The notes beneath the pieces are model-generated. The model did no database searches. It worked only from the letters and a program-made list of their open reading frames with translations, and was not told where the DNA came from. 64,000 bases of DNA from Escherichia phage Eps7, in sequence record NC_010583.1; one strand, written 5' to 3'. The translations under genes and the position numbers were made by a program. Positions 9,130 through 62,548 of this stretch are shown here, in pieces; the stretch's first letter is position 1, and the number at the start of each line of letters is the position of its first letter.

Positions 9130-9429
9130 TTACACCTTCCCCATATCCTTAAAGATATCGTAGAATGCTTTAGACTCCGGTGAGCGAACGTTGTCGATCA
9201 GTTCGATCATAGAGAAAGGAGAGTTTTCGTACTTCTCATAGACTTCCATAAGAAGTGCTAGACCTGAATCACCCTTGATGTCTTTCTGAGCTATATCCCC
9301 ACAGATAATTAAACGACAATCTTGTCCTACACGAGTCAGGAGACAGATCATTGCTTCAACGGAGATATTCTGAGCTTCATCGACAATTACATAGGAGTTG
9401 TTGAATGTTGCCACGCTTTCTTGAACCAT
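9130..9429 (-). CDS. PhoH-like ATPase, C-terminal half only (Walker B onward)
   Basis: VIVDEAQN, LTRVG, GDIAQKD, SGL and VRS motifs; no Walker A upstream; an out-of-frame ATG with AGGAG RBS lies at about 9463. Confidence 0.65.
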   Translation of the reverse strand: MVQESVATFNNSYVIVDEAQNISVEAMICLLTRVGQDCRLIICGDIAQKDIKGDSGLALLMEVYEKYENSPFSMIELIDNVRSPESKAFYDIFKDMGKV

Positions 9430-9536
9430 TGCGGTTCTCTCTTTTTTGACGTGCTTTTCCCATAAATAACACTCCTATAGTGTACTTCGCTAACAGAGGA
9501 TCAACAAAAAGATCTTGTTTATCAACTTACAAATAT

Positions 9537-36600: not shown

Positions 36601-36606
36601 TAATAA

Positions 36607-36640
36607 ACCCCAGTGGACAATCCACTGGGGTTTTCTCTTA
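36607..36640 (+). terminator. rho-independent terminator closing the rightward early block
   Basis: CCCCAGTGGA-CAA-TCCACTGGGG followed by TTTTCTCTT. Confidence 0.75.
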
Positions 36641-36718
36641 TTTAGTAAGGAGTTGTTTTACTAATTCCTTTATTTTATTAATCTTTTTTTTTTTGAAAGG
36701 GTGCAAAACGAACCTCTT

Positions 36719-36748
36719 GCATTTTGCATTTTGCATTTTGCGTTTTCA
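36719..36748. repeat. tandem heptamer (GCATTTT) x4 next to a T11 tract at the convergent early/late junction
   Basis: TTGCATTTTGCATTTTGCATTTTGCGTTTTC; T11 run at about 36684-36694. Confidence 0.6.
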
Positions 36749-36882: not shown

Positions 36883-39833
36883 TTATGGTAGTTCTGTAAT
36901 TGTTGGAGCATTTCCGTTAAGCATTGATTTTACAAGGTTTTTCAGTTCATATAACTCATTGCGTAATACGTTAATTTCCTCCTGTTGATTATCAATCTTT
37001 GCTTTTTGCTCTTTGAATGCGTTAACAAGAAGTGCGACAACACCATTATAGTTAATGCCTTTGATTGCCTCGCCTTTTGGGTCTAGCTGACCATCGTTAT
37101 TCAAAGAATGAACCGCTTCCGGCAAAACCCTTTCAACATCTTGTGCGATCAATCCAGCCTCAATACTATAAACGCTGTTTTCATCTTCAATTAGATTGTT
37201 GCGCTTGTAGTAAGTATAACCAGTTAGATAATCAATTTTGTCGGATGCCGTTTCGATCTCTTTTAGATGTGCTTTTAATCTAATGTCAGACCTGCTAACC
37301 CAATTTGATGCGCTACCATTTCCAGCACTATCAAAAATAAAGTCAGCGCCCTTAACATAAAGATGTGTTTCAGCGCCGCCAGAAGTCCACGGAACAACAT
37401 CCATGCCAGCTATCCAATCTTTCCCCAATAAACAGATTTAAATATGGCAACCGCAGAATCAAATCCAATGTGCTCAACAAGCAATCCAGACGCACGACTA
37501 CGCCAGTCGGCAAATGAACCACCCTCAACTTGACCAGCAATAAGAGCGTTTGGATCACCGCGCCTAACTCCATTTACATACATACCCCTTGCGTTATCAT
37601 CAACATAAGATGATATGACCCTGTAAGTGTTTATTCCTGATGGAGTCCATGCAAATATTCTCGCTGAATCAGCAAACGCGCTTATGTGACCATCACGATC
37701 CCATTTAAGACCTGAATCATGATCCCCAATTGCTATAGAGTAATCACCAAGAGCCGATTGAGCATCCGGACTTAATAACATCAATTGCCTATCAGATCTT
37801 GCTATCCTGTACCATCCACCCCAAGAGCCAGCACTGCAAATGATACCCCATTTATTACCGTTCATTGCGGTTGCAACAATATTTCCATACTCAACATGAC
37901 CGTTTGCATTTTTACCGTGAACATGCAATTCATACATCCACCAACCAGAGGCTTCAGGTGGTTGATATGTAACAAGTTCTCCGCTTGAGTAATAACCGCT
38001 TTCTGCGTATGTTGACATAAACCCAAGAATGTTTGAATTATTAGGAATAATAATTGCTTGACCACCAACAGGAGTATTTAAGTTCTTTCTTGCTCCAACT
38101 TCAGTATTAGATCCAGTGCCGCCAGCATCAATTGAAAGAGGAATCCATCTTCCAGTTTCATCAGTCCAAACACCCCACGCCGCATCAGGTCTAATTGTGA
38201 TTCGATAAGGTGAGTTACTCCCTGGTGCATACATCATAGTTTCTGTTTCTGTTTGCTTTAAACGATCAATGCCAAAGTTTATTTTTGCGCCCTCAACGTT
38301 TTCAGCACCAGTACCGCCAGCACCAATAGAAAGCGCAGATGTGCTGTTATTGTCATTACGCGCAACGCGCCATTCCCCATTGTTAGCGATCCGTAATTCA
38401 TAAGTCCATGCAGGATTACGAAAAGAATTATAAGCGCCAGCATATTGATCTTTTACAGAATTAACAGCCTCAACTTTTAGCGCCTCCCTTGCAAGGTCTT
38501 TGTTTGCAAGATCATTAAGGTTCTGATCCTTCTTTAACGACGCTTGCATAACCTGTTCTGCTGATGCAGCCGCTGTCTCCGCTCTATCTGCTGCACTGGT
38601 GGCATTAGTAGCTTTCTCTCCTGCTATTGTAGCGCTACCAGCGGCCTCCAGGGCCTTGTCTGTTGCTGTCGTTGCAGCAGTAGTGGCGGTATTTTTAAAT
38701 ACCTCTGCTTCGTCTCTGTAGCCTTTGGTTGTGGTCATCGCTTGCGTAGCTGTATTCGCACTACCTGATGCACTTTGCTGAGCTAGCTTAGCAGCGTCTT
38801 CACTAGCTTTTGAGTTAATTTCACTAGTCTTTGTATTAGTTTCTGAGTTTTTTGCTGCTAATGCTGATGTGGAGGCTTGTGCAGCGAATGCTTCTGCTTC
38901 ATCCCTGAATCCTTTGGAGTCAGAAGCAGAGGCAGCGGAATCAGCAGCATTAGTCTCACTAGTTTTTGCTGCTGCTGCATATGCTGCTGCATTAGTCTCA
39001 CTAGTTTTTGCATTAGTCTCACTAGTTTTTGCATTAATCTCACTAGTTTTTGCTGCAGCTGATGATTCTATAGCAGTAGTTTCACTAATTTTTGCTGCAG
39101 CTGATGATTCTGCAGCTTTAGTAGCGGATGCAGCAGATTGAGAAGCAGAAATAGCAGACTGAGAAGCAGAAGCTTCAGAAGCTTCAGCAGAAATAGCAGA
39201 TTCATTCTCAGAATTCTTAGCATTAAGTTCTGAAGTCTTAGCAGCTATCTCGGAGTCTTTTGCAGTAGTAGCGTATTCTCCCGCCTCTGTAGCAGAACCA
39301 GCAGCAGCAATAGCCTGATTGGTAGACTCAGTAGCAGATGTAGCAGCATTTTGCTCAGAAGTAGCAGCAGCAGTCTTAGCAGCCTCAGCGTCCTTCTTAG
39401 CTTGTTCAGCTAATAGACGACTCTGTTCAGCATTTTGTGCAGCAAGTTCAGCAGAATCACGGAATCCTTTGGATTCCTCAGCTGACGTAGCAGAGGCATC
39501 AGCACTATCTTTAGATAAACCAGCTTGTCTCTCCGCTTCAGTAGCAGAAGCAGCAGATTGAGTTGCAGAAGTTTCTGAAGAGTTAGCGTAAATTGCAGCT
39601 AGGTTCTCCGAGTCCTTAGCATTTGTTTCAGATTCTTTTGCTGCAATTTCAGAATCTTTTGCTGCCGCAGCAGAAGCAGCAGAGGCCTCAACAGCCCCTG
39701 TTAGTTCACTAGCAGTAATAGAACTAATAGAAGTACCTAAAACTACCGTATACTTAGGATATTTACTAGCAGTAGTTGTAGTGTCATCTATGTTCAGAAT
39801 CTGCTGTACAATAATTTTAGTTTTAAGTGCCAT
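36883..39833 (-). CDS. ltf: L-shaped tail fibre (pb1-like) with C-terminal intramolecular chaperone domain, frameshifted
   Basis: Ala/Ser/Thr-rich fibrous repeats, then a Gly-rich globular domain, then chaperone motif IEAGLIAQDVERVLPEAV; frame break at C4/G4 (37423-37426). Confidence 0.8.
38947..39115. repeat. 21-bp tandem repeats inside the tail fibre gene (encoding KTSETNA heptads)
   Basis: ATTAGTCTCACTAGTTTTTGC x3 in tandem at 38990-39052 plus further partial copies. Confidence 0.7.
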
Positions 39834-40255
39834 TATTGAGTTACTCCATCGCTGATGTATACTTTACCTTCCATAATACGGAAAGAATTGACTTCAGAGC
39901 CAATTACATCACGAGTCATTAGGATATCATAATAACCAGCAAAACGTTGTCTTGGGTTATACTTATCACGTTCTTTAGATGCTTTTTCACCAATATTAGT
40001 AGTGTCTGCAATGGAAAGACTAATTGCAGCAGCACCTTGAGCAGCATCAATAACATGAGTTTTAAAATTAGCTAGAACCTCGGCGTTCTCATCTAAACTA
40101 GATTTAATAGTTCCTCTGAGTGAATACCCTGTCAAGTTAACAGGAAATTCTGTTGGCGGATATACGCTATCATCAACATCCATAAATTGCATGATAAGAC
40201 TATAAGGCACTTTCTCATCAACAACAATATCAATAACTCGGTTTTCTGTACTCAT
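39833..40255 (-). CDS. collar protein (T5 p132-like)
   Basis: 140 aa; position between pb4 and the tail fibre gene. Confidence 0.55.
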
Positions 40256-60860: not shown

Positions 60861-62548
60861 TTACCAAGGTTTTTTATTATAAATATATCCATTTCTACGA
60901 AAAGCCATCTCATCAGGTCTACTAGCCCACGTTTGGGTATAGCTATATGAAGTTGTACTGTGATATGGTACTAGATAGCCAGGTGGCAGAGTAAGAATCT
61001 GATGAAATACACCATCACCAGCTGTATAACTTTGTTGACGTCTACCTTGTACCTGCCAAGCACTACCACCGTAAGTACGTACAGGCATACCAGCAGTATT
61101 AAGATTACCCATAATAACTTCAGTAGTTAATATAACAGTAGAGTGAGCATTTGGTAATCCCAACCAAACTGTAGCCAAAGGTGTGTAGAAGTCACCAGCA
61201 CCAGGGTAGGATGGAGTTATATCATCCCCAACATAAGTACTCGCAACGTTGCCTGGGAATAATCTAAGTGGTACGGTACTAGGACTCCATACAGGGCCAT
61301 GCTCATTACCTATAGAGTTGGTATTAGTATCTACATACCACTGTTTACCAACACCAAATTTATAAAGGCTAATTTGAGAAGCAGCACCCCCATAGTTAAC
61401 AGGAGACCACAAACCCCCATTACTAGAGCCGATAAATTCACATCGTGCAGTATTATCACCAAAAACTCCGGTATACGCGGTATTATTACCAACATACTCC
61501 ATATCAGGGCGATAACCTAAGTTTCCAAAAGCATTCTGGTTAATAAATTTATAGCCTGAGTTGGGTAAGCTAACACCTTTAATAGTAAAGTTAGATGGAG
61601 ATATCAGGATATCTGAACCAGTAAATGGATTACCAGAAATCCCCATACTACCATTAGAATAGCGTAGATTTAGCACATACCAAATAACTTTAGTAGGTGT
61701 AACATTATACCAGTCTTGCACATATACCTTTCTAGCTGACTGAGCAGCCATATTAGAAGTAGAACCTCTACAAACATATATTTTTTCTGGGTATGCAGGA
61801 GATTGGTAAAGAACGTTTACGTTATCTGGTAGTACTACCTTTTTTTACCGGCAAAGCCACGAATATTGGAACTACAAACGTAAAACCAATCATGACCTCT
61901 ACCAGCAGACCCGATAGGCGCTTGCCAGTTAGGCTCCCAATAGTCTGCATTACCACCATCTATAGGAACTGTAGATACACCCGTTGGAAAGCCCATTAAT
62001 CCCCAGGCTCTAGAAATAGCTTCACCAGCAGAAACACCACCAGGTCTAAAGATCTGGAAACCGGAAGATTGTAGCAAAGTACCGCCAGTTCCTTGTCTAG
62101 CAATAGATTCCTCATGACCTAGGCTACCATTATAAATATAGGTACCATGAGCTAAACTATCACCGATTGCAAAGGCAGATGTTATTGCCAATTCAGCACC
62201 AGCACGTGGTTGGTCTTCAAAGAATGTTAAAAACTGGCCAACCTGAGATTGTGTACCATTAAGGAAACCCCTATGAGTACCGTTTATCTCAATAGCAGTT
62301 AATATAACTCTACCAGGATCATTGGATTTAATGTTTATAATATCCCAAGGCATCTGAGTAACAAAATACCCATTACCTGCATCACCTAGAGCAGCCTCGT
62401 AAGTCCCATCAACTAGGACAAATGGCATATCTGAGTGGAAGATACTATTAGTATTTGGAGAGTAGTGCTGATTTATATCACCACCATTAGCAGCGTTTAG
62501 AGATAATACAGTTTTACCATCACTAAATTTTCCTGCGAAAAAACTCAT
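60861..62548 (-). CDS. receptor-binding tail protein (functional analogue of T5 pb5/Oad), frameshifted
   Basis: 237-aa and 296-aa ORFs join (~560 aa) if the T7 run (61840-61846) is read as T8; divergent from an Llp-like lipoprotein gene. Confidence 0.6.

What the first reader, a model, noticed from the sequence alone, without database searches (positions are those of the whole stretch)
36883..39833. L-shaped tail fibre gene with frameshift before the chaperone domain and internal 21-bp tandem repeats
The fibre body and the C-terminal intramolecular chaperone (IEAGLIAQDVERVLPEAV) are in different frames, separated at a G4 run (37423-37426). Three or more tandem 21-bp units at 38990-39052 encode KTSETNA heptads, a candidate site for repeat-number variation. 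The assembled protein (~985 aa) is shorter than T5 pb1.
Basis: partly seen in the sequence, partly recalled or inferred. Interest (0 to 1): 0.45.

Follow-up and report, generated by a model that had tools for sequence, protein, structure and literature searches.

The report
Broken tail-fibre gene, probably a sequencing error
This is the side tail-fibre gene of a T5-like Salmonella/E. coli phage (the EPS7 reference sequence), split in two by one missing G that every related phage has, most likely a sequencing error and otherwise an ordinary fibre-loss mutation, not a designed feature.

Summary
On the minus strand, an 807-aa ORF (39833-37410) and a 181-aa ORF carrying a Peptidase_S74 chaperone (37428-36883) lie in different frames and meet at a G4 run (37423-37426). 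Three tandem 21-bp KTSE(I/T)NA units lie at 38988-39050.

The frameshift is not a feature of the gene. All 55 related phage records have one more base there (G5, or GGGGT/GGGGA) and one continuous ORF of about 983 aa. Adding one G gives a protein 99.5-99.9% identical to intact orthologues.

The truncated protein is exactly GenBank's EPS7 tail fibre, so the window is very probably the 2008 EPS7 record. In this window at least ten other conserved genes are also broken by 1-2-nt indels, mostly at homopolymers. They include the tape measure, pb4, the receptor-binding protein and nrdA. A sequencing error is therefore the best reading (about 0.7).

A real fibre-loss mutation stays plausible (about 0.2). 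A different phage in a Salmonella Derby assembly has lost one A in the same G5A3 tract, and spontaneous LTF-less mutants are documented in T5-like phages. The G4 allele also creates G_GGA_AAG, lambda's -1 slippery heptamer, and a -1 slip would restore the wild-type protein.

Repeat number does vary among relatives (969, 983, 990 and 1016 aa). Interest is low.

The parts
36883..39833 (-). Lateral (L-shaped) tail-fibre gene. It is a single 2952-nt, 983-aa ORF in relatives. Here it is 2951 nt and frame-broken.
37410..39833 (-). 5' ORF of 807 aa, identical to GenBank ACB97589.1 / YP_001837069.1 'tail fiber protein [Escherichia phage Eps7]'. It contains the N-terminal collar-attachment region, the Ala/Ser/Thr/Glu-rich repeat shaft and most of the distal domain. 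It ends ...YWGK-IG*.
36883..37428 (-). 3' ORF in the other frame: 181 aa from TTG at 37428, or 173 aa from ATG at 37404. It holds the last 43 residues of the mature fibre tip plus the chaperone.
37420..37426 (-). G4A3 tract. Relatives have G5A3 (or GGGGT/GGGGA plus a variable codon). One base is missing here.
37419..37425 (-). G_GGA_AAG in frame 0, a canonical X_XXY_YYZ -1 slippery heptamer created by the deletion. A -1 slip gives exactly the wild-type protein. The frame-0 stop TAG lies two codons downstream (37412-37410).
   Evidence: lambda G/GT heptamer GGGAAAG in PMC3296357
37108..37290 (-). Peptidase_S74 (intramolecular chaperone) core. The predicted scissile Ser849 is at 37290-37288, in the motif SDIRLK with Lys854.
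   Evidence: T5 Ser1264/Lys1269 in PMC4690869
38988..39050 (-). Three tandem 21-bp units encoding KTSEINA, KTSETNA and KTSETNA.
38944..39122 (-). Wider degenerate repeat array (period 21/42). It includes a fourth KTSETNA at 38946-38966. This is where relatives differ in length.
39833..40255 (-). Upstream gene for the LtfC/p132-like collar protein that anchors the fibre. Its stop overlaps the fibre gene's start.
36605..36633 (.). Bidirectional hairpin terminator with a 13-bp stem, between the convergent fibre gene and the dut operon.
   Evidence: equivalent feature annotated in T5 and Seafire

Best explanation
The locus is the lateral tail-fibre gene of an Epseptimavirus, very probably the EPS7 reference record. 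In the real phage it is one 983-aa protein.

Its N-terminal 200 or so residues are homologous to T5 pb1 and DT57C LtfA, and attach it to the LtfC/p132 collar. A long Ala/Ser/Thr/Glu-rich shaft follows, built of heptad-like K-x-S-E-x-N-A repeats. Then comes a distal receptor-binding region unrelated to pb1's, and finally a 135-residue Peptidase_S74 intramolecular chaperone (Ser849/Lys854). That chaperone helps the trimer fold and then cuts itself off.

The apparent frameshift is a single missing G in a G5 run. It is most likely a base-calling or assembly error in a record that carries many such homopolymer errors.

Shown here: the missing base, its uniqueness, the intact orthologues, the error load of the window and the domain matches. 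Inferred: that this particular indel is technical rather than biological, the fibre's function, and the cleavage site.
For: - **One more base in every relative:** all 55 related phage records (many are GenBank/RefSeq pairs) have one more base at the tract and a continuous ORF. More distant relatives vary the Gly third position and the next codon (GGG AAA, GGT AAG, GGA CAA, GGT GAT, GGT AAT) while keeping the length. That is the pattern of a frame read straight through.
- **Repair restores an intact orthologue:** adding one G gives 983 aa, 981-982/983 identical to phages 3-29 and Seafire.
- **Family profiles span the junction:** PHROG fibre profiles align across it in one stretch (phrog_5481 covers 383-976, phrog_14572 covers 422-966).
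- **Error load of the window:** in the same window nrdA, SIR2, ligB, pb4, the tape measure, the minor tail protein, the tail terminator, an endonuclease and the receptor-binding protein are also broken by uncompensated 1-2-nt indels. Several of these are essential, so a viable phage cannot carry them all.
- **Control:** two good relatives at the same divergence, PSa2 and BSP22A, show no frame-breaking indel in any CDS when compared with each other.
- **Technical signature:** the rate of homopolymer length changes rises with run length. It is A/T4 0.7%, A/T5 3-4%, A/T6 19%, and 1 of 8 for G/C5.
- **Source:** the 807-aa product equals the deposited EPS7 protein exactly.
Against: - A Salmonella Derby assembly carries a different phage whose LTF differs from the window's at 9 nt. 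It has lost one A in the same G5A3 tract, giving the same ...YWGKIG* end. Every other gene on that 15-kb contig is intact, and two independent assemblies of the sample agree.
- A third sample, with an LTF identical to the Derby phage's, has its 112.8-kb phage contig broken so that 41 nt around the tract are missing. The tract may therefore be a genuine deletion hot spot.
- Spontaneous LTF-less mutants are reported to arise very often in T5-like phages grown on rough hosts (PMC4728585).
- G5 is the longest G/C run in the gene.
- I could not read the raw EPS7 data or the EPS7 paper.
Confidence: 0.7

Rival explanations
1. The deletion is real. The sequenced EPS7 stock carried a spontaneous G5-to-G4 slippage mutation that truncates the fibre after residue 805. 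This removes the last 43 residues of the tip and the whole chaperone, so trimers cannot fold. The phage would be fibre-less or fibre-poor, like T5-hd1. It could still infect through its central-fibre receptor-binding protein on hosts whose O-antigen does not shield the receptor.

Because the deletion creates G_GGA_AAG in frame, a few per cent of ribosomes might slip -1 and make the wild-type protein. That would leave a leaky phenotype.
For: - There is an independent one-base loss in the same tract in another phage, on an otherwise clean contig. Distances show that EPS7 and that phage are each closer to intact 3-29 than to each other (3 and 6 against 9 nt), so two separate events are favoured.
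- A third sample has an assembly break flanking the tract.
- Fibre-less T5-hd1 carries a truncating pb1 mutation (PMC10038345).
- The -1 product is identical to the repaired protein. The heptamer equals lambda's G/GT site, where frame 0 is kept about 96% of the time (PMC3296357).
Against: - The same record has at least ten other broken genes that cannot all be real, so an error inside the 2.95-kb fibre gene is expected by chance.
- No other G4 allele was found in 55 phage records, IMG/VR or JGI metagenomes.
- There is no RNA structure downstream of the heptamer beyond shuffled controls (z = -0.06).
Confidence: 0.22
2. The G5A3 tract is a contingency (phase-variation) site. Reversible one-base slippage would switch fibre production off and on, so that populations hold both fibred and fibre-less particles.
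For: Two different one-base losses occur in the same 8-nt tract, and a third sample's assembly breaks around it. G5 is the longest G/C run in the gene.
Against: - A 5-nt run is short for a contingency tract.
- Several relatives replace it with GGGGT or GGGGA without consequence, so the run itself is not conserved.
- 55 of 55 phage records are in the ON state.
- No reads were available to show mixed alleles.
Confidence: 0.05
3. The split is a designed arrangement. Either a programmed frameshift is involved, or a separately translated chaperone restarts at ATG 37404, five bases after the TAG, and acts in trans.
For: There is a canonical heptamer in frame, with a stop two codons later. A possible restart ATG lies close to the stop.
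Against: - The two-frame layout is absent from every relative.
- The downstream ORF would carry 38-43 residues of the mature tip, not only the chaperone.
- The S74 domain is by definition the covalently linked C-terminus of the protein it folds (PMC4690869).
- The heptamer exists only because of the deletion.
Confidence: 0.02

Closest known systems
Intact lateral tail-fibre proteins of Epseptimaviruses (Salmonella phages 3-29, Seafire, BSP22A; Escherichia phage SuperGirl/Bas29), 983 aa
   Same: 99.5-99.9% identical once one G is restored. Same neighbours (pb3, pb4, LtfC upstream; terminator and dut/flap downstream) and same repeat number.
   Different: They have G5 at the tract and one continuous ORF.
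Bacteriophage T5 pb1 (Ltf, 1396 aa; PDB 4UW7/4UW8/5AQ5)
   Same: Same genomic position. The N-terminal 211 residues are 53% identical. It has the same AKTSETNA-type repeats, and a C-terminal self-cleaving chaperone with a Ser...Lys pair five residues apart.
   Different: It is 413 residues longer. The distal receptor-binding region shows no detectable sequence similarity, and pb1's C-terminal structures were not hit by phmmer. Receptor specificity is therefore not expected to be polymannose.
DT57C LtfA (PDB 8HQZ chain d, 1076 aa)
   Same: Residues 1-205 align at E=1e-62. It is the closest solved relative of the attachment end.
   Different: DT57C has a two-protein branched fibre (LtfA plus LtfB). 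This phage has a single fibre gene.
Phage S16 gp37 distal fibre with its chaperone (PDB 6F45)
   Same: Residues 848-971 align to its C-terminal chaperone, including SD-R-K. Residues 692-736 align to a distal fibre motif.
   Different: It belongs to a myovirus long tail fibre. Only these segments are shared.
T5-hd1 and spontaneous LTF-less mutants of DT57C/DT571/2
   Same: Truncating or inactivating fibre mutations give viable fibre-less phages on permissive hosts. This is what the window's allele would be if real.
   Different: Those are experimentally verified. Here the mutation itself is unverified.
Lambda G/GT -1 frameshift site (GGGAAAG)
   Same: Identical heptamer in the same register, encoding Gly-Lys in both frames, with a frame-0 stop just downstream.
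   Different: Lambda's site is conserved and functional. This one exists only in the deleted allele and is not conserved in any relative.

Membership tests
T5-type lateral (L-shaped) tail fibre, pb1/LtfA | N-terminal collar-attachment region homologous to pb1/LtfA | tested here: met
   53% identity to T5 pb1 over residues 1-211. DT57C LtfA 8HQZ aligns at E=8e-64. phrog_24369 (profile length 1396) matches 3-211.
T5-type lateral (L-shaped) tail fibre, pb1/LtfA | Position after pb3, pb4 and the LtfC/p132 collar gene, convergent with dut/flap | tested here: met
   The LtfC Pfam hit is in the upstream gene. The gene order matches relatives and T5.
T5-type lateral (L-shaped) tail fibre, pb1/LtfA | One continuous reading frame from attachment end to chaperone | tested here: not met
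   Broken at 37423-37426 in the window. It is met in all 55 related records, so the failure is of this sequence, not of the gene family.
T5-type lateral (L-shaped) tail fibre, pb1/LtfA | Distal receptor-binding domain of the pb1 'bullet' type | tested here: not met
   There is no similarity to pb1 beyond the N-terminal region and repeats. pb1's C-terminal chains were not hit in the PDB.
T5-type lateral (L-shaped) tail fibre, pb1/LtfA | Reversible binding to host O-antigen | not testable with these tools
   Inferred only from T5, DT57C and BASEL literature.
Peptidase_S74 intramolecular chaperone | Pfam PF13884 match above the gathering score | tested here: met
   46.6 bits against a cut-off of 22, E=4e-12, covering profile positions 1-58 of 58.
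Peptidase_S74 intramolecular chaperone | Scissile Ser with Lys five residues later, at the start of the domain | tested here: met
   SDIRLK gives Ser849/Lys854. It aligns to SDRRIK of S16 gp37. The spacing matches T5 Ser1264/Lys1269.
Peptidase_S74 intramolecular chaperone | C-terminal, about 130 residues, covalently joined to the fibre it folds | tested here: inconclusive
   The domain is 135 residues at the C-terminus, against 133 in pb1. It is joined to the fibre in every relative but lies in another frame in the window.
Peptidase_S74 intramolecular chaperone | Autoproteolytic release after trimer folding | not testable with these tools
   Needs protein expression.
Programmed -1 ribosomal frameshift site | X_XXY_YYZ heptamer in frame 0, with a long ORF in the -1 frame | tested here: met
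   G_GGA_AAG lies at 37425-37419. The -1 product equals the repaired 983-aa protein.
Programmed -1 ribosomal frameshift site | Conservation of the heptamer and the two-frame layout in relatives | tested here: not met
   0 of 55 records have it, and relatives read straight through.
Programmed -1 ribosomal frameshift site | Downstream stimulatory RNA structure | tested here: not met
   The MFE is -22.1 kcal/mol against a shuffle mean of -21.9, z = -0.06.
Homopolymer contingency (phase-variable) locus | Tract-length polymorphism among or within populations, with both states recoverable | tested here: inconclusive
   Alleles G4A3 (window) and G5A2 (Derby contig) exist, and one assembly breaks at the tract. 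All 55 phage records are in frame, and no reads were available.

The most novel reading that the evidence does not exclude
The G5A3 tract near the 3' end of the Epseptimavirus fibre gene is a recurrent slippage hot spot that repeatedly produces fibre-off variants. The G4 allele is not fully off: it happens to form lambda's -1 slippery heptamer G_GGA_AAG in register, with a stop two codons later. A few per cent of ribosomes would then restore the exact wild-type fibre. This would be an accidental, self-correcting frameshift that gives a low-fibre rather than no-fibre phage.
Probability: 0.08. Interest if true: 0.45.

Novelty: already known. Interest (0 to 1): 0.15.

Why it matters
The practical value is as a warning. 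The window is very probably the EPS7 record, and EPS7 names the species in which close relative PSa2 is filed within Epseptimavirus. In this window, at least eleven genes, including the tail fibre, tape measure, pb4 and the receptor-binding protein, look split by single-base indels. Annotations copied from this record, such as an 807-aa 'tail fiber protein' or a stand-alone chaperone ORF, would mislead comparative work and host-range prediction.

The biology of the gene itself is ordinary: an N-terminal anchor, a repeat shaft of variable length, an exchangeable tip and a self-cleaving chaperone.

One mildly interesting lead remains. The same 8-nt tract has lost a base independently in another phage, which could mark a preferred route to the fibre loss that T5-like phages are known to undergo in culture.

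Tried and rejected
- **More alleles of the tract:** scans of IMG/VR and JGI metagenomes found only one G5 contig (the SH9 genome) and one unrelated chance match.
- **More truncated alleles in the protein database:** searches with the C-terminal ORF and with residues 562-807 returned few clusters and could not be used to count alleles.
- **Intact Derby-lineage protein and EPS7 contig:** exact look-ups found nothing.
- **Source material:** the EPS7 record (NC_010583) and the EPS7 paper (PMC9021807) are not held. I could not learn the sequencing method or the propagation host.
- **Frameshift-stimulating RNA structure:** folding the 100 nt from the heptamer downstream gave no signal.
- **Programmed frameshift or separate chaperone gene:** rejected because no relative has the two-frame layout.
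- **Shared ancestry of the EPS7 and Derby alleles** (one deletion followed by an A-to-G change): this costs as many events as two independent deletions, but it is disfavoured because each phage's LTF is closer to intact 3-29 than to the other.
- **Plus-strand ORFs inside the gene** (90 aa or shorter): these are low-complexity mirror images of the repeats and were not pursued.
- **thyA and dhfr:** their apparent breaks in my mapping are alignment-edge effects or ambiguous, so I did not count them.
- **Structure prediction:** not run, because sequence evidence already settled the domain assignments.
Full report
**What is in the sequence.** The finding's coordinates bound one gene on the minus strand. 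An ATG at 39833 overlaps the stop of the upstream LtfC-like collar gene (39833-40255; Pfam LtfC). The last stop is at 36885-36883. Read from the ATG, the frame closes after 807 codons (...SVYWGKIG, TAG at 37412-37410). A second frame is open from 37428 to 36883. It holds SIEAGLIAQDVERVLPEAV and a full-length Peptidase_S74 match (46.6 bits against a cut-off of 22). Tandem Repeats Finder reports a period-21 array (38947-39053, score 126) and a period-42 array (38944-39122, score 179). In the protein these are KTSEINA-KTSETNA-KTSETNA at residues 262-282 (38988-39050), with another KTSETNA at 290-296.

**The frameshift is private to this sequence.** Megablast of the locus finds 369 related T5-like phage records. 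The best are 99.7-99.9% identical and always one base longer. In phages 3-29, Seafire and SuperGirl the gene is annotated as a single 2952-nt CDS of 983 aa. Alignment places the extra base in the run: relatives have GGGGG where the window has GGGG. A 191-nt query across the junction matches 55 records, and every one spans one base more than the query. Many of those records are GenBank/RefSeq pairs. More distant relatives read TAT TGG GGT AAG GAT, GGA CAA GAT, GGT GAT GAT or GGT AAT GAT. They vary the third position and the next codon but never the length, as expected for a frame translated straight through. Inserting one G gives a 983-aa protein 981/983 and 982/983 identical to 3-29 and Seafire. 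PHROG tail-fibre profiles align across the junction as single stretches.

**What the gene is.** Residues 1-211 are 53% identical to T5 pb1. Residues 1-205 match DT57C LtfA in the solved tail structure 8HQZ (E=1e-62). This is the end that threads into the p132/LtfC collar in T5 (PMC10038345). Residues of about 45-430 are 31% Ala, 15% Ser, 11% Thr and 11% Glu, and are built of K-x-S-E-x-N/T-A-like heptads. T5 pb1 has the same AKTSETNA motifs. The distal 400 residues have no detectable similarity to pb1's receptor-binding domain. They share segments with phage S16 gp37 and with 'long tail fiber distal subunit' PHROGs. The S74 domain starts at SDIRLK (Ser849, Lys854). This aligns to SDRRIK of S16 gp37 and has the same Ser-to-Lys spacing as the catalytic Ser1264/Lys1269 of pb1. 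By analogy, the last 135 residues fold the trimer and then cleave themselves off. This step is inferred, not shown. T5 pb1 is 1396 aa, so 'shorter than pb1' is correct. The break falls after codon 805, 44 residues before Ser849. The truncated product would therefore lack part of the mature tip as well as the chaperone.

**Why I think the missing base is an error.** The 807-aa product is exactly ACB97589.1 / YP_001837069.1, 'tail fiber protein [Escherichia phage Eps7]', from a 111,382-bp contig. The window is therefore very probably the EPS7 record, which is absent from the phage collection I could search.
- I mapped every annotated CDS of BSP22A, PSa2 and PMBT27 onto the window. Uncompensated 1-2-nt indels break nrdA, SIR2, ligase subunit B, the fibre, pb4, the tape measure, the minor tail protein, the tail terminator, an endonuclease and the receptor-binding protein.
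- ORF listings confirm the splits. The tape measure is 879 + 374 aa instead of 1236. The receptor-binding protein is 237 + 296 aa instead of 593. pb4 is 567 aa instead of 685.
- Several of these genes are indispensable, so they cannot all be genuine in a phage that forms plaques.
- As a control, PSa2 against BSP22A, equally divergent (97.5%), shows no frame-breaking indel in any CDS.
- Length changes concentrate in homopolymers and rise with run length: 0.7% of A/T4, 3-4% of A/T5, 19% of A/T6, and 1 of 8 G/C5 runs, that one being the fibre's.
- With roughly 15 or more such events in 64 kb, about 0.7 are expected in a 2.95-kb gene by chance.

**Why a real mutation cannot be dismissed.** The same 90% protein cluster contains another 807-aa protein, from a Salmonella Derby genome assembly.
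- Its contig, assembled independently by the submitter and by Logan from SRR3182272, reads TATTGGGGGAAGATTGG, that is G5A2. One A is lost in the same tract, giving the same ...YWGKIG* end followed by a 173-aa S74 ORF. Every other gene on the 15-kb contig has the normal length.
- That phage's fibre gene differs from the window's at 9 positions. Each is closer to intact 3-29 (6 and 3 differences), so two separate deletions are the simpler history.
- A third sample (GCA_019385035.1) has a fibre gene identical to the Derby phage's. Its 112.8-kb phage contig ends 14 nt before the G run and restarts 19 nt after the A run, so 41 nt are missing. An assembler would do this at an unresolved fork. That points to mixed alleles, but this is an inference.
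- G5 is the longest G/C run in the gene.
- For DT57C and DT571/2, LTFs were dispensable on hosts without a protective O-antigen. [quoted passage not shown] Fibre-less T5-hd1 carries a truncating pb1 mutation (PMC4728585; PMC10038345).
- Other public records also have split fibre genes at other positions: KKP_3822, STyj5-1 and GRNsp8.

**A curiosity of the G4 allele.** In frame 0 the window reads U-GG GGA AAG AUU GGA UAG. G_GGA_AAG is a canonical X_XXY_YYZ -1 slippery heptamer, identical to lambda's G/GT site, where about 4% of ribosomes shift (PMC3296357). A -1 slip there gives ...YWGK-DWIAGMD..., which is letter for letter the repaired wild-type protein. There is no stimulatory RNA structure downstream (z = -0.06), and the heptamer exists in no relative. 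This is an accident of the deletion, not a programmed site. If the deletion is real, it would make the defect leaky.

**Repeats.** Among relatives at 99% identity or more the array length is constant. More distant relatives differ in multiples of seven residues within the array. MET_P1_137_112 has a fourth tandem KTSExNA (990 aa). Phagemcphageface and falkor lack 14 residues (969 aa). Shin27 has a 33-residue duplication (1016 aa). This is usual for fibre shafts.

**Verdict.** This is an ordinary, already annotated lateral tail-fibre gene. Its apparent frameshift is most probably a homopolymer error in an error-rich reference record (about 0.7). The alternative is a trivial fibre-loss mutation (about 0.2). 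A designed two-frame arrangement is excluded by comparison with relatives. The only lead worth a small follow-up is the recurrent base loss in the G5A3 tract.

Noticed in passing
window 7196, 8422, 8467 (nrdA); 12593 (SIR2); 22290 (ligase B); 42087 (pb4); 47014 (tape measure); 51203 (minor tail); 53042 (tail terminator); 58769 (endonuclease); 60877 and 61836-61840 (receptor-binding protein): At least ten other conserved genes in the window are frame-broken by 1-2-nt indels relative to all relatives, mostly at A/T runs one base too long. A control pair of relatives shows none. The window appears to be an error-rich reference record (EPS7).
   Followed up: yes
L016 8380-8400 and L017 8349-8369 (Salmonella Derby, SRR3182272 / GCA_008843455.1): A different T5-like phage found in a bacterial genome assembly has G5A2 instead of G5A3 at the same tract. 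This gives the same truncated 807-aa fibre plus a 173-aa S74 ORF. All its other genes are intact.
   Followed up: yes
L018 end (12393) and L027 start (1), contig ABBNMR010000014.1 of GCA_019385035.1: A 112.8-kb phage contig has a fibre gene identical to the Derby phage's. It is broken so that 41 nt around the G5A3 tract are missing, which hints at mixed alleles in that sample's reads.
   Followed up: partly
L013 (KKP_3822) about 98 nt downstream of the tract; L009 (STyj5-1) in the repeat array; GRNsp8 (P0014): Other deposited Epseptimavirus genomes also have fibre genes split by single-base indels at other positions. Split fibre ORFs in this group are common and should not be read as architecture.
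   Followed up: partly
window 36717-36746: An intergenic 7-bp tandem repeat TTGCATT (4.3 copies) lies downstream of the fibre gene. PSa2 has one unit fewer, and SB10 and fuchur also match 7 nt shorter over the locus. Function unknown.
   Followed up: partly
window 36684-36694: An intergenic poly-T run whose length differs among relatives (10 in BSP22A, 15 in PSa2).
   Followed up: no
window 36605-36633: A perfect 13-bp-stem hairpin acts as a bidirectional terminator between the convergent dut operon and the fibre gene. The same feature is annotated in T5 and Seafire.
   Followed up: partly
L019-L025 (S. Typhi pHCM2/SSU5-like phage-plasmids, protein P0010): These 106-107-kb elements carry a stand-alone 170-aa S74 ORF. 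The fibre-body ORF upstream overlaps it by 22 nt in some contigs and is missing or degraded in others. This could be a decayed or frame-split fibre gene in that lineage.
   Followed up: no
window about 9406-9463: Relative to phage PMBT27, the window lacks about 420 bp in the phoH region. I did not examine whether this is a real deletion or different gene content.
   Followed up: no
P0015 (Escherichia phage Shin27 fibre, 1016 aa): A 33-residue duplication within the KTSExNA array is the largest repeat-length variant seen.
   Followed up: partly
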